A DNA stretch of 64,000 bases from Eledone cirrhosa (Eukaryota). The stretch spans positions 157,914,001 to 157,978,000 of the forward strand of contig OZ024742.1 of the NCBI GenBank assembly GCA_964016885.1, given 5' to 3'. Shown here one piece after another: positions 1,380-58,472 of the stretch. The notes beneath the pieces were generated by a model, which was given only the letters and a program-made list of their open reading frames with translations, searched no databases and was not told the DNA's origin. Both the position numbers and the translations under genes were made by a program. Positions within the stretch are counted from its first letter, which is position 1, and every line of letters starts with the position of its first letter.

Positions 1380-1424
1380 AGTCACTGAAGAGGTCACAGA
1401 GTGTGTGACGAAAGAACTATGACT
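1380..1424 (+). ncRNA. Minimal type I hammerhead ribozyme in PLE 3' pseudo-LTR
   Basis: Stem I agtca/tgact, core CTGAAGA, stem II gtcac/gtgac, GAAA, 2-bp stem III, CUA cleavage triplet. Confidence 0.8.
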
Positions 1425-2716
1425 ATATATATATAAACAACTATCTGGTTGTGGAACCAACCAACCAATCAGAAATTTATAAATTTATAAATTTATAAAT
1501 ATTTAATAAATTAAATTGAAGTGAAAGCAACTGGTGCGTGTGTTTCTTATTGGCAACATGACCCTCCCAAAGTATAACAATATCGGTTTCAACACACGAT
1601 TTCAGATAAAGAATCTTGCTAAACAAATTCAGAAACGAAATATATATATATATATATATATATATATATATATATATATATATATATATATATATATATA
1701 TATATATATATTTATTAAAATAACAGATTAAAGTTTAAGCAAAGAATCGCTGCTTTCACCCTTAACGGGATCTTCTGAAACTAACAAAGTCAATCTGTAA
1801 ACGCAGAACTGGATATTTCAAAAAACGTTGCAACCGGAGGAAGACAGGAAGACGATACTTTGGTTCGTGGTAACGTTCGCTGGCAAAGAACGGGAAAAAA
1901 CGAATATAATACGTCATTAATAGGAGCGGTGAAAAACAATTACGCGCAAAGACAGAACCACGTTTATGGTATAAAAGAGGTCGTAGACTAATGTTCTCTT
2001 AGGTGGTGCATAGAGACGTTCTCTGGCAATGAACGAAAAAAACGAAGATAATACGTCATATGTTGAACGTGGAGAACAATAGCATGCAAAAACAAAACCA
2101 CGTAAATGCTTTAGCAGAAGTCGTAGGCTAAATTCTAACTAGGAGACCGAATGAATCTCCGCTACGGAGTTAAGAACAAAGTAAATAAATACAATACAGA
2201 AGTAATAGAAATAAATAAATACATACACGCAAACAAAAACGTACATACACAAGCATACGCAAAAACTTACTATAGGTAAACAAAACCACGCACATATAAA
2301 TATGTGTGTGTGTGTATAAGCGTGTATACAAATAAATAAATAATTATATAAACGTATATAAATAAATAAATACGTATATAACAAGCGTACACACATACCT
2401 ACAAGTAAATACACGAATGTTCGGAGACGTAAGTCAACCAAAACATGAAGTACACATATACACACGCCCTACATACGTACGAACCTGCATACTCACAGAG
2501 ACGCAAAACTCCCGTATACACATAGCCAAACCATATGTACCAGAATATATTAAAAAATTATACGCCATAACAATCAAATATACGTACGAGAAGGTATACG
2601 TACCTTCACAAAAAATACGGATAATATATACTTACCTATGCAAATAAGTAAAGGTATAAACAAAACATATACTTAGCTCCCACATCGAGACGTAAAAAAT
2701 CCACGTATAAATCGTA

Positions 2717-2862
2717 CTATCCGTTATGGTATAACGTGGGGCTGTAATACAGGAAAGTTTTGTGCAATTTATGTTTACAAGCCGAAATTGCCTCAGATTT
2801 TTTGTTTAAGATGTGGTCTGTGGCGTAGAGTATTTCCAGGGCCTCAGCGGCGCAGAGGTCAC
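2717..2862 (-). pseudogene. C-terminus of a Hydra-type PLE GIY-YIG endonuclease
   Basis: CDLCAAEALEIL...ILNKKSEAISACKHK matches the CxLC..E..I...LNKxSE...CxH ending also seen near 30970-31070 and 55470-55560. Confidence 0.7.
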
Positions 2863-3162
2863 ATTGTTCTCCACGCTCCACATATGACGTATTATCTTCG
2901 TTTGTTTCGTTCATTGCCAGAGAACGTCTATATGCACCACCTAAGAGAACATTAGTCTACGACCTCTTTTATACCATAAACGTGGTTCTCTCTTAGCGCG
3001 TAATTGTTTTTCACCTCTCCTATTAATGACGTATTATATTCGTTTTTTCCCGTTCTTAGCCAGCGAACGTTTCCACGAACCAAAGTATCGTCTTCCTATC
3101 TTCCTCCGGTTGCAATTTATTTTTGAAATATCCAGTTCTGCGTTTACAGATTGACTTTGTTA

Positions 3163-3211
3163 GTTTCAGAAGATCCCGTTAAGGGTGAAAGCAGCGATTC
3201 TTTGCTTAAAC
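3163..3211 (+). ncRNA. Hammerhead-like motif with variant core CAGAAGA (family A)
   Basis: Stem I gttt/aaac, CAGAAGA, stem II ccc/ggg, GAAA, stem III gca/tgc, CUU triplet. Confidence 0.55.
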
Positions 3212-54494: not shown

Positions 54495-55449
54495 GAAAAA
54501 GTAAAAATAATGAATTGTAATAAGGCTTTATCCTAAATAATGAATTGTAATAAGGCTTTGTCCTACCAATATCAAAAAATATAGTTTGAAAATGCAAGAA
54601 ATTTCTTTTTTAATTTATATAGTAGACTAACAACACTTCAAAAGTGTCCACGAAGATAGAAAGAGGAGCTAAGGATTTCAATGACCCGAAGGTAACCCAA
54701 AATTAATTAAAATAAATTAAATTAAATTAAGTAATAATCCTTATATAATTTAGAACATTAAGAACATATTTAACAATTATAACAATAGAGTGTCATTTAA
54801 GTATCCAAATTACTTATAAATGTAACTAGGAGCATGTTATATTACTAGATAAACAGATTTGTTCAAATATATAGAGAGAGTATTATAGGTATTAGTGAAA
54901 CGATATACATATAATAAATAAATAATTACAATCATTATTAGTAATGTTATAATTGTAGTTTTACATCCAGTCTAGTGGAAAGAAAGACCAATATTTGTGG
55001 ACTAGTAACATTTTTGACAGTTATACCTAAATATATATTAAAAAAATAAAATGTACAAATTTAACTTTCTGAGTCCTAAAACATACTTAAAATGAGTAAA
55101 ATATATAAATGCATCAATGATTTACGGTTCAATTATAACCGGTACTCTTATAAGTTATATATCCAAATTATATATTTAAAACAAAAACAAATATATAAGG
55201 ATTCAAATCTAAATTATATATATCAAAAATAATCCAAAGGTGTGCATATTCATCAAGAGAACATGTTAACAAATAATATGTTTATATACCTAAACAGGAC
55301 CCTTTAGTCTAACATTAATTCTAACATTACTTCTATCATAGAAAATAAAACATTATTAAAGTTTTATAATCTGTTATAACGTTTTAGGTACACAGTTGAT
55401 AAGAGACGTCAACAATTAAAACCTGTTTATTTAATGTTTTTTCCTGACT

Positions 55450-57070
55450 TTTTGCGAGGCTTGGAATGTAGACAAAGCTTTATGAAGGCAGTTTGAGAAT
55501 AATTCACTTTTTTTGTTAATTAAGTTTTCATAATTAGTAATTTTTAATAGGATGTCCATGGTACAGAGGCTGCAGTTAGGTGATATTGACGAATTCGAGT
55601 AAATTCTACTATTATAGCTTCGTCCAAAAAATCGAGTATTTTAAATTTTTTTCTTTTAATGACCATATATTACATTGCTTCCTCCAAAATATCGAGTATT
55701 TTAAATTTGTGTCTTTTAATGACCATATAAGTTGTGATAAAGAAGTCGAAGACTTCCTATTAGGATTCGAAAAAGGGCATTTATGATTCCCAAATCTCGA
55801 TTTAAATGTCGAAGAAGTTGCCCCAATATAGTTGTATGTGATGTTATTTGCTTTTACGGTGCATTTATACACCAAATTGCTATCCAGACAATTATTTTGC
55901 AGAGGACAATCTGGTTTATTTCTACAATTACATTTCGATTTATTATTATTATAATTTAAATACTATTATTACTTCGAAATGTTCTGTTGATAGTGCTTAT
56001 ATTGTTGTTAATGTTATTCATAGTATCAATATTGTTAGTGTTATTATATTCACTATTGTTAAATGTGTGCTGATTATGGTTTAGAATTCTACTATTTAAT
56101 TTAGCGATGTTTTAGTTGTAGATTAAGAAAGCTTTATTGTGTGTCTATTAAATATGGAACGGTATTTATGTTGAATAGTGAGGGAATTATCTAAAGCTTT
56201 AAAGCATAGATTAGCGTGTGGTGTTTTTATTGCTACAGAAGCAGGTGGGGGTGGGGGGGGGGCATATAACTGATTTAGTTCTGTTTTTTTCCCTGATTTA
56301 TTCACAGTACTGGTGTTTGAATTATAATTTTTAGAATTTCGTTTATACATGTTAGTCATATTATTATTTTTATCAGGATTATAATTCAAATTATTATTGT
56401 CTATATATTCTATATTATTTTTATAACCTGCCTTTTCATCAAATATGGATTTATTAGCAGATATTCTAGTTATGCGTTTCTGTACACTATTGACAATTGC
56501 ATTTTTCACAGATTTAGGATGATTAGAGTAATAGCTAACGTAATTTAAATTTTCATTGGGCTTATGGAAAGGGTAATAAAAGCCAGAGTTTAAGTTAAGA
56601 GTAACATCAAGGAAATTAGCTATTTTGGTACCACTTTCAACCTCTAATTTAAGGTCGTAATTTTCAAAAAATTCAATTATAGTTTGCTTAACCCTATTTA
56701 GTTCTGTATTGCTGCGTTTGACAACCGTAAATAAAATATCGTCCCTATATAAACCACCGGTAATCTCCGGCAGTTTTCTATTTACCATATTTAAGATGAA
56801 AATCCCCAGAATATCCGTGACCTGCGCTGAGTCCGATGATCCCATGGTAATGTCAAACTTGCTATTCCTAACTGAGGAGTCCAATACTCATTGTTGAAAT
56901 TAATTAGAGTTCTTCTAGCAGTTAATATTATATCGATTTCATCCGTAGTTAGATCTGTATGCATGTAAGCATACGATAAAGTCTTATTTAATAGGTTAGG
57001 TGTAATGGAAGAGTAATAGCTTGAAACTTTTAAACTATATTTTTTTATATTGGGCACTTTTATTGGGGAA
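55450..57070 (-). pseudogene. Hydra-type PLE RT + GIY-YIG, frameshifted
   Basis: YYSSIT..LL..., FDITMGSSDSAQV.D..G, GLYRDD, NFLDVTL, SNHP, VYKCTV...YIGAT...FKSR..NH, CSLC...LINKKSELFSNCLH. Confidence 0.9.
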
Positions 57071-58415
57071 ACAATTCATTATTTTTACTTTTTCACTTTT
57101 TATTTTGAATCCAGTCCTTATCCTTAGGATTCAAGAAGTTTTGACTTGTATATTTATAGTATATATCTATTAAATGATCCTATTATAATAATTGATCTAA
57201 AACATTAATTTTAACAATAACTTATTTATTGTATTGTATTATGTTATGTCTAATTGAGAGGTATCATCTTAATCTTTAGACAATATAATCTTTGTGTATT
57301 TTTTGGATAAACGCATATATATAATTTAATAATCAAACTTTTCAAAGTTTAATTATAAGGCCTGTTGATCCTTTGACAATTCAAATTGTTAATCTTAAAA
57401 TTCTTTAAACATTATAACTGTAATTATTTTCTAAGTTATATAATGTAAACTATTTTCTATATAATATAAATAATTTAATATTATATAATAAATTTAGTAA
57501 AGTTTACCTTCGTGAGGATGTTAAAACATTATGTTTTCTTTCTCGTGATTGTAAATCCTTTAAATTTGATTTCATAAAATTTGACTTTATGAATTAAATA
57601 TGATAGTATACTTTAATATTAATACAGACATTTATTAACTTTTATAACCTAAAATATTATTCATTACTCTGAACTAACTTAAATTAAATGATTTGTATGT
57701 TAGCGGTCAACCAGATATGTTCGGATATATATTGTGTATATAGATAATTATCTAAAGTGATGGTATTAACCTTCATATGAATACACCCAATTATATTTAA
57801 AATTTCGATTGATGAATAATTTTAGGTAATTCAAGAATTCAATGAATTGACTTTTTTGGCTTTTTCCTAAAGCTAAGCCTAAATGTTGTTCTAATTAATA
57901 TCTCCCTATAAAAATTATTCCTCTTTATCTCTCTCTCTGTAATCAACTCTCTTTTGATTTCTATGATCTTACTAGCTATATTATCCCCTCATATATTTCT
58001 TTCTCTATGCCTTTCTTTTCTTTCCTCTTTCTTCGGTAATTTAAATTATTTGAATCTCTAACAGTTATATTGCTGCTATGTATTTTTTAAGCTTTCTCAC
58101 ATGCACCCTCTCTATTATATGTATTATATGTAGGTTTATTTCATGTTTCAATATTAATGTATAAATATTGAGTTTTATCATATATTACTCACTACCATGA
58201 CTGAATCTTAACCATCTACTATGTCAGGGTATGTCATCCATCATCTTATTTTATCTGATGAGGACGTACTCTTGAAGTTAACCCAGTACCTCTAAAATAT
58301 GTATAATAAAATATACTTGATCACAAGAATATCAATTTTCTTAATATTTTGAATATAATATATATATATATATATATATATTTAGTTATGTAATAAACAA
58401 CCTAAGGCAATTATA

Positions 58416-58472
58416 TCATTTACCAGTGGTTTCTTGAAAGCAAAGAAATTTTGCTTTCCATCATCAGAATGA
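58416..58472 (-). ncRNA. Hammerhead ribozyme
   Basis: tcatt-CTGATGA-[gaaagcaaa/tttgctttc]-GAAA-cc act gg-TA-aatga. Confidence 0.8.

What the first reader, a model, noticed from the sequence alone, without database searches (positions are those of the whole stretch)
1380..58472. About ten apparently unrelated families of hammerhead-bearing fold-back elements colonising (TA)n
Seen: hand-foldable HHRs at 1380, 3163, 6031/6196, 17743/18064, 22623, 23090, 34578, 43065/45441/46175, 48549, 49590, ~52745 and 58416, with different stems but the same core. Most sit in elements built as inverted arm + arm + one-sided tail, bounded by (TA)n. Known: PLE pseudo-LTRs carry minimal HHRs and are often inverted, and retrozymes are non-autonomous HHR elements. 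Inference: the 0.2-0.6-kb palindromic units are either extreme PLE truncations or a self-propagating class of hairpin retrozymes using PLE RT/GIY-YIG. The diversity and density in 64 kb is striking.
Basis: partly seen in the sequence, partly recalled or inferred. Interest (0 to 1): 0.75.

Follow-up and report, generated by a model that had tools for sequence, protein, structure and literature searches.

The report
Penelope stubs folded at RNA start
These mirror-image DNA repeats with predicted self-cutting RNA motifs are mostly leftover ends of Penelope-type jumping genes, likely remade at every insertion rather than spreading as hairpins, and in several families both halves stop at one spot that likely marks where the element's RNA begins, a clue to how these poorly understood elements copy themselves.

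Summary
The hammerheads are real (7 strict hits vs 0.27 shuffled), though Rfam finds none and four listed sites are defective. 21 of 24 element ends touch (TA)n. They are not a class of hairpin retrozymes. Seven families are 3' ends of coding Penelope-like elements (PLEs); five belong to the Hydra clade, with RTs 40-58% identical. Three others are ORF-less tandem units (310 nt, about 520 nt, 2.4 kb). In family A, fold-backs are remade at each insertion: 34 different junctions in 38 copies, and arms concordant at 113 of 114 diagnostic cells. Inverted arm, one-sided tail and TA bias are published PLE traits. Not found in print: arms stop at a wall on an initiator-like TCA upstream of the ribozyme cut site (A: 49 of 56 arms reaching it; D, E similar), and two loci restart from that wall inside the element's 5' region. 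Best model: both nicked strands copy one RNA from two internal starts to its 5' end, and failed jumps leave stubs. This scan already noted twin priming and the RNA-start fold elsewhere in this genome. Window density is ordinary here.

The parts
1..1639 (+). Family I: PLE 3' part (RT end + GIY-YIG with Zn-finger linker, ORF to 1096), minimal HHR core at 1385, ends at (TA)n
   Evidence: (GIY-YIG E=3e-4, below the Pfam cut-off)
1711..3321 (+). Family B long fold-back (arms 1712-2080 / 2863-3232, tail on the right); non-canonical core CAGAAGA at 3167; Hydra ORF end at 2738-2890 on the minus strand
5902..6405 (+). Family E stub: short inverted arm, two 165-nt repeats with HHR cores 6039 and 6204, tail 6310-6405
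14617..15153 (+).
15198..15356 (-). Family B stub (tail + arm, fold in TCTTCTGAAGA)
17603..18146 (-). Family J: 310-nt tandem retrozyme-like unit, two copies, each with one core lesion; inverted arrays at other loci
22224..22870 (+). Family F: fold-back of an ORF-less head-to-tail unit of about 520 nt; HHR core 22630 (stem I 7 bp, GUC site)
22895..23422 (+). Family C fold-back, arms 98% identical, HHR cores 23080-/23099+, fold at the wall (23092), tail from 23286
24360..29308 (+). Complete PLE ORF (1022 aa, 24887-27955, Neptune-like motifs) between 458-nt inverted repeats with a U3-A8 HHR-like variant
30084..30302 (+). Family B 219-nt fold-back; the CTGAAGA at 30147 is a junction product
32290..34660 (+). 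Degenerate Neptune-like PLE; HHR core 34583 in its 3' region, stem I mutated in this copy
38225..38415 (-). Family A 191-nt fold-back holding only the 3' half of the ribozyme (further copies 40136-40263, 49078-49262, 52485-52676); 15,551 exact tail matches genome-wide
42869..46284 (-). Family H: 2376-nt ORF-less unit in partial tandem plus an inverted arm; HHR cores 43118-, 45494-, 46179+
48341..49056 (-). Family I2: 5'-truncated PLE end with a short inverted arm + tail; HHR core 48586, weak stem I
49386..49783 (+). Family D fold-back, HHR cores 49483-/49597+, left arm ends at the wall (49552), tail 49695-49783
52700..58354 (-). Family E parent: broken Hydra-clade ORF (about 57030-55460) between 516-nt inverted arms; HHR cores 52801- (intact) and 58255+ (GAAA mutated)
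58382..58570 (-). Family K arm with HHR core 58467 (relatives at 21971- and 29599+); parent not found

Best explanation
Most of these fold-backs are the 3' ends (pseudo-LTRs) of protein-coding Penelope-like retrotransposons, mainly Hydra clade, likely produced anew at each insertion into (TA)n when both nicked target strands copy the same RNA and stop at its likely 5' end. Shown here: the parents, the two fixed outer ends, copy-specific junctions with matched arms (family A), a sharp inner wall in A, D and E (weaker in C and B), and two loci where copying restarted from the wall inside the element's own 5' region. Published for another PLE in vitro: both strands are cut and extended from two internal RNA sites, and the product shortens with the RNA 5' end. 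Inferred: the wall is the transcription start (Inr-like TCA), lying 45-130 nt upstream of the predicted ribozyme cut. Inferred: the RNA runs start - tail - ORF - hammerhead, so priming at the upstream tail gives a short 'strong-stop' cDNA that must jump to go further. Inferred: failed jumps are joined head to head as stubs, while a homologous jump onto the repeated start-to-cut segment would rebuild the pseudo-LTR. Three families (J, F, H) are instead ORF-less tandem units likely moved in trans by the same machinery.
For: Parents: C tail lies 3' of a Hydra ORF in L186/L189; D in L192/L194; B in L197. A: L393 is partial tandem + full element + inverted arm. E: window 52700-58354. A, 90 position-ordered copies: 49 of 56 tail-side arms and 53 of 56 inverted arms that reach 131 nt stop by 143; stop rate 0.12-0.14 per nt at the wall vs 0.001-0.005 on either side. 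The inverted arm's outer end is nearly always at 78 nt. 34 distinct junctions in 38 fold-backs; 113 of 114 diagnostic cells concordant; arm distance 1.9% within vs 4.7% between copies. D: 11 of 17 inverted and 9 of 22 tail-side arms end at 168-170; 39 of the first 100 of 8,489 arm matches leave the parent sequence at the wall, by hand count. E: 17 of 17 inverted arms end at or before 163, four exactly there. The walls of A, C, D and E fall on the A of TCA, which occurs at 1.8% per position in these regions. L395 repeats [wall-tail-5'UTR 1-116]; L394 has [wall-tail-1-821][wall-tail]. 6 of 90 A arms end within 1 nt of the predicted GUC cut (0.9 expected, Poisson p=4e-4). Summed contig depth in run X1 rises about 20-fold across the wall. 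Literature: PMC11167929, PMC8557442, PMC2377424.
Against: No RNA 5' end was measured. The cap signature is weak: G precedes the wall in 7 of 20 non-palindromic D junctions (p=0.04), or 4 of 17 without those explained by microhomology (p=0.33). The wall is poor in B (6 of 21 and 5 of 18 arms at 60-73) and modest in C (7 of 30 at 187-192, of which L124 is a SINE insertion with target duplication and L121 is joined to the same SINE). None was seen in I/I2 or F. In D, 19 of the 39 wall arms share one perfect junction, which unit copying would also give. The junction and arm-concordance test was done for A only. Gene conversion could also match arms. One of the six cut-site ends has 3-nt microhomology, and the peak is not evident in B-E. 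In vitro, cleavage was not needed for insertion and uncut RNA was the main substrate (PMC11167929). Samples B-F are top-identity tail hits (young copies) and A covers only the first 35 Mb of one contig.
Confidence: 0.7

Rival explanations
1. Self-propagating hairpin retrozymes: each arm-arm-tail unit is transcribed whole and re-inserted as a unit by PLE proteins.
For: Whole-unit queries return 40 of 40 scored copies at full length, 97-100% identical for A and 93-100% for C. One perfect junction recurs in D (9 pairs + 1). Copy numbers are very high.
Against: Those hits are ranked by likeness to the query. Unbiased A copies have 34 junctions in 38, no asymmetry seen more than twice, and no A>G excess (3 of 37 assigned changes). 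A stubs lack the CUGANGA half and the sequence upstream of the wall. Tail-only samples run into ORFs.
Confidence: 0.06
2. The wall is a structural stop: RT stalls or the cDNA snaps back at the hammerhead or a local palindrome (self-priming, as proposed in PMC3846280), with no relation to a transcription start.
For: Walls lie in or near the ribozyme (A in loop II; B and C at stem I). D's wall sequence ATAT is self-complementary. Junctions often use microhomology.
Against: A stem II snap-back would keep the whole 36-nt loop, but A junctions hold parts of both strands of the loop. D and E walls are 64-69 nt upstream of the core. Arms without an inverted partner stop at the same base (L156, L254, L273). 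Restarts into the 5'UTR/ORF begin at the wall.
Confidence: 0.14
3. Short SINE-like masters: some solo arm+tail copies beginning at the wall are themselves transcribed and mobilised, the mirror arm being added at insertion.
For: A stubs vastly outnumber ORF sequence (summed depth about 4,000,000 vs 8,000 in X1, not a copy number). A has tail-linked subfamilies. Penelope has an internal Inr/DPE promoter (PMC2377424).
Against: Two loci show the template continued past the tail into the 5'UTR and ORF. Long copies carry the same subfamily variants. It is compatible with the best model as an extra RNA source.
Confidence: 0.1

Closest known systems
Hydra clade of C-terminal EN+ Penelope-like elements (Craig et al. 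2021, PMC8557442; abstract, passages, section 11 and supplement rows read), incl. Hydra-1_Obim
   Same: RW[K/R], DKT, CxCX5C linker, C-terminal GIY-YIG, HHR, (TA)n target; inverted 5'-truncated copy and one-sided tail (their Fig. 2 legend).
   Different: Tails here are 75-140 nt rather than 30-40. There are thousands of stubs with a sharp inner wall, which the passages read do not describe. No sequence comparison with Hydra-1_Obim was made.
Minimal HHRs of metazoan PLEs (Cervera and de la Pena 2014, PMC4209133; parts 1-2 of 4 read)
   Same: Type I minimal motifs with palindromic helix III, the U3-A8 variant, many families per genome, and pairs 100-700 bp apart on opposite strands ascribed to truncated PLEs.
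   Different: Family A has a 6-bp helix III; family B has a fixed U4A core; no fold-point analysis there.
Poseidon PLE of Anolis in vitro (Frangieh et al. 2024, PMC11167929; parts 1-2 of 4 read)
   Same: Both strands nicked and extended, two internal RT starts that define the tail, product length set by the RNA 5' end, AT-rich target.
   Different: Different clade. Their HHR overlaps the ORF start, cleavage was dispensable, and no head-to-head joining or jump step was shown.
Metazoan non-LTR retrozymes (Cervera and de la Pena 2020, PMC7229834, passages; Li et al. bioRxiv 10.64898/2026.07.22.740005, parts 1-2 of 5)
   Same: Families J (310 nt) and F (about 520 nt): ORF-less head-to-tail units with one type I HHR each; PLEs proposed as mobilisers or ancestors.
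   Different: Here they carry PLE insertion marks (two fixed ends, inverted arms; 'inverted' has 0 hits in PMC7229834). Circular RNA was not tested.

Membership tests
Hydra-clade PLE (parents of A-E) | Single ORF, RT with C-terminal GIY-YIG-type EN | tested here: met
   ORF order in L186, L189, L194, L197, L393 and window 57030-55460. Pfam gave no hit for the three Hydra segments scanned, so the domains rest on motifs.
Hydra-clade PLE (parents of A-E) | RWK-type motif and DKT instead of DKG | tested here: met
   RLRWR/HSDKT in L226 (A), RIRWR/HSDKT in L189 (C); not seen for B, D, E because those parts were not in the loci.
Hydra-clade PLE (parents of A-E) | CxCX5C linker, no CCHH motif in the EN | tested here: met
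   CNC-x5-C in A, C, D, E and B; no cysteine pair inside the GIY-YIG core in these translations.
Hydra-clade PLE (parents of A-E) | HHR in the pLTR and (TA)n target | tested here: met
   B's core is non-canonical.
Hydra-clade PLE (parents of A-E) | Phylogenetic placement with reference Hydra RTs | not tested
   Only pairwise identity among the five parents, 40-58%.
Neptune/Nematis-type PLE (parents of 1380, 48549, 34578) | CX2-5CxxC linker, CCHH-type EN, DKG | tested here: inconclusive
   Linker at window 713 and 27551, DKG at 26081 and 32428; the clade was not resolved by a tree.
Non-LTR retrozyme (J, F; H by extension) | Head-to-tail repeats with one type I HHR per unit and no ORF | tested here: met
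   F: tail end abuts unit start in at least 13 of 30 loci (28 distinct places). J: 310-nt repeats. H: 2376-nt repeat without ORF, far above the usual size.
Non-LTR retrozyme (J, F; H by extension) | Expressed as self-cleaved circular RNA | not testable with these tools
   Not assayed.
Non-LTR retrozyme (fold-back stubs A-E) | ORF-less unit that propagates as itself with at least two HHRs in tandem | tested here: not met
   Coding parents exist; A stubs lack half the ribozyme and have copy-specific junctions.
Type I hammerhead ribozyme | Conserved core with three pairing stems | tested here: met
   for most families; not met for B (U4A) or for several window copies.
Type I hammerhead ribozyme | Self-cleavage | not testable with these tools
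   Only indirect: 6 of 90 family A arms end at the predicted cut.

The most novel reading that the evidence does not exclude
Hydra-type Penelope elements replicate through a retrovirus-like strong-stop step. The RNA is bounded by a start in the upstream pseudo-LTR and the hammerhead cut in the downstream one, which creates a short terminal repeat. RT primes near the 5' end on both target strands and must jump via that repeat, regenerating pseudo-LTRs and tandems. The tens of thousands of fold-back stubs are failed jumps that map transcription starts and in-vivo ribozyme cuts directly in the genome.
Probability: 0.35. Interest if true: 0.8.

Novelty: new variant of a known kind. Interest (0 to 1): 0.5.

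Why it matters
How PLEs make their inverted and tandem structures and regenerate pseudo-LTRs is stated as unresolved (PMC2377424: 'no obvious mechanism'; PMC8557442), and the hammerhead's role is unclear. The wall, the restarts from it and the cut-site peak give exact nucleotides to test by 5' RACE and an in-vitro RT assay. The PLE-type ends on ORF-less tandem units are physical evidence for who moves animal retrozymes. As elements, the repeats are ordinary members of known groups.

Tried and rejected
Rfam scan: no hammerhead, only low-complexity miRNA noise. The inverted-repeat tool was swamped by (TA)n. Whole-unit genome searches suggested fixed units; rejected as ranking bias after tail-only and position-ordered sampling. 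An ~830-nt 'fixed 5' end' in C (10 of 30) proved to be an internal microsatellite before the ORF. A tail-only DNA search for A returned nothing, likely because its words are too common. A search for a CUGANGA-core form of A gave 4 hits that look like point variants or rearranged junctions; the real core is U3-A8 (7 of 11 long copies TTGANAA). ADAR editing of hairpin transcripts: no A>G excess. Splice acceptor as the wall: no AG before the wall base in A, C, D or E (read from sequence). Folding: whole units form -200 to -313 kcal/mol hairpins, but stem I is also improbable in single arms (P<=0.06), so the masking test is uninformative. No RNA holder listed among sequencing runs. Contig joints in runs X1/X4/X5 were too few to map folds. 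One search fetched an unrelated paper by a wrong DOI. No structure prediction or remote homology search was needed.
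Full report
Setting. The window lies in a 3.0-Gb, AT-rich, microsatellite-rich animal genome (34% GC). It is all repeats: LINE pieces, a SINE-like repeat and at least five PLE ORFs or fragments. I read the whole window. Family letters below are mine.

Observation. Hammerhead-like motifs are far above chance (7 vs 0.27; 12 vs 0-3 with a looser descriptor), although Rfam reports none. Four are defective: family B has CAGAAGA in 21 of 26 distinct copies and the canonical core in none; each of the two J copies has a core lesion; 34583 has a broken stem I in this copy only; 48586 has almost no stem I. 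Collected on core letters alone, 27 distinct motifs pair better than permuted partners (69 vs 51% stem I, 81 vs 54% stem III; relatedness not controlled). 21 of 24 element ends abut (TA)n vs 2.6% by chance. The density is within this genome's range (43 in 400 kb, 1-18 per 50 kb).

What they are. Searching with whole units returned full-length look-alikes, but that ranking favours the query's shape. I therefore sampled by tail only (B 30, C 30, D 28, E 30, F 30 loci) and by genome position (A: first 90 of 15,551 exact tail matches). C, D and B tails lie downstream of same-strand ORFs. A has a complete element in L393. E flanks an ORF in the window. These five parents carry Hydra-clade motifs as defined in PMC8557442 section 11 and are 40-58% identical in RT, so the families are related. 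Sites 1380, 48549 and 34578 follow PLE ORFs with a CX4CxxC linker. No parent was found for K (58416) or 14930. F is a head-to-tail unit of about 520 nt with no ORF between repeats (at least 13 of 30 loci), two fixed ends and inverted arms. J is a 310-nt tandem unit. H is a 2376-nt ORF-less tandem unit.

Are hairpins copied as units? For A, no. Among 38 complete fold-backs there are 34 junctions. Three subfamily columns agree between the arms in 113 of 114 cells, arms differ 1.9% within vs 4.7% between copies, no asymmetry occurs more than twice, and there is no A>G excess. The stubs lack the ribozyme's 5' half. Long copies have a U3-A8 core, a 5-bp stem I, a 6-bp stem III and a GUC site. In D one perfect junction recurs (19 of 39 wall arms); it lies on a self-complementary ATAT and could arise either way. 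The test was not run for B-E.

The wall. In A, 49 of 56 tail-side arms and 53 of 56 inverted arms that reach 131 nt stop by 143 nt. In D, 11 of 17 and 9 of 22 arms end at 168-170 (6 of 28 loci had no tail-side arm), and 39 of 100 listed genome matches leave the parent at that base (hand count). In E, all 17 inverted arms end at or before 163 and 9 of 30 tail-side arms end at 152-163. C is modest (7 of 30, two doubtful), B is weak, and I/I2 and F show none. The walls of A, C, D and E fall on the A of TCA; the Inr reading of this motif is from recalled consensus plus PMC2377424 and PMC3846280 passages. All lie upstream of the predicted cut. Two of the 49 A wall arms are preceded by the element's own 5' region in the same orientation: L395 repeats wall-tail-1..116, and L394 has wall-tail-1..821 then wall-tail. 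So the template began at the wall and continued into the ORF. Six A arms end within 1 nt of the predicted cut (0.9 expected). The cap-G signal is only suggestive. Contigs of run X1 show a roughly 20-fold step in summed depth at the wall and loose ends at the wall and at both outer ends; run X5, another organism, has single loose ends at the wall (depth is not copy number).

Mechanism. A purified PLE protein cuts and extends both target strands from two internal RNA sites, and product length follows the RNA 5' end (PMC11167929). That accounts for arm, arm and one-sided tail. Adding an RNA that starts at the wall explains the fold point and the abundance of stubs. A jump onto the repeated start-to-cut segment would rebuild the pseudo-LTR; that last step is inference, since long arms could equally come from priming at the downstream tail of uncut RNA. 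Confidence 0.7 for twin run-off at the RNA start, 0.35 for the full strong-stop and hammerhead cycle.

Comparison and novelty. Inverted truncated copy, one-sided tail and (TA)n bias are in PMC8557442. Opposite-strand HHR pairs and U3-A8 cores are in PMC4209133. Junction palindromes with an antisense self-priming proposal are in PMC3846280. Retrozyme-PLE links are in PMC7229834 and bioRxiv 2026.07.22.740005. Six literature searches and these readings did not show the wall or a strong-stop model; none of the 15 papers listed contained 'strong-stop' or 'twin priming'. The library lacks most subscription papers. I reached the reading before looking (note), but this scan has already recorded twin priming, fold at the RNA start, terminal hairpins and the 310-nt retrozyme in other windows of the same genome; those notes are not independent support. 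The pointer to Hydra-1_Obim came from them and was checked in the supplement. Verdict: known element classes, no new hairpin class, and a useful, testable mechanistic footprint. Interest 0.5.

Noticed in passing
window 24360-29308: Apparently intact 1022-aa PLE ORF between 458-nt inverted repeats 99.8% identical: a very young Neptune-like insertion with a U3-A8 HHR-like motif near 29160.
   Followed up: partly
   Followed up: no
window 41507-41843 and 42237-42574: 730-nt tandem with an HHR of long stem II (cores 41547, 42278): candidate further retrozyme.
   Followed up: no
window 15374-16942: Inverted arms around a decayed Hydra RT fragment (16489-16644); HHR core 16809.
   Followed up: partly
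window 30560-31800: 5'-truncated Hydra GIY-YIG fragment followed by a 3' region with a U3-A8 HHR candidate at 31674.
   Followed up: partly
L171, L174, L181 (family D); L146, L147, L152 (family B): Copies made of the inverted arm joined directly to the tail, with the tail-side arm absent: either very early abort of one cDNA or later hairpin deletion.
   Followed up: no
L054, L042 (families I, I2): Folds next to an AAAATGGCG motif (YY1-like, recalled) 50-60 nt upstream of the core; too few copies to call a wall.
   Followed up: partly
window 10134-10451, 18626-18743, 51385-51796, 54299-54513: Abundant SINE-like repeat ending in (ATT)n; it also sits inside family C copies L121 and L124.
   Followed up: no
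L081-L088 (G000:C20, 4.0-5.2 Mb): Several identical family C stubs spaced about 100-350 kb apart: a large segmental tandem duplication, not independent insertions.
   Followed up: no
window 39610-40039 and 40328-40414, 51782-52037, 20857-21568: Further short palindromic elements with no hammerhead found; families not traced.
   Followed up: no
window 3263-4872, 12924-14532, 35956-37630, 60266-61850: LINE-type RT fragments of several families, some ending directly at (TA)n.
   Followed up: no
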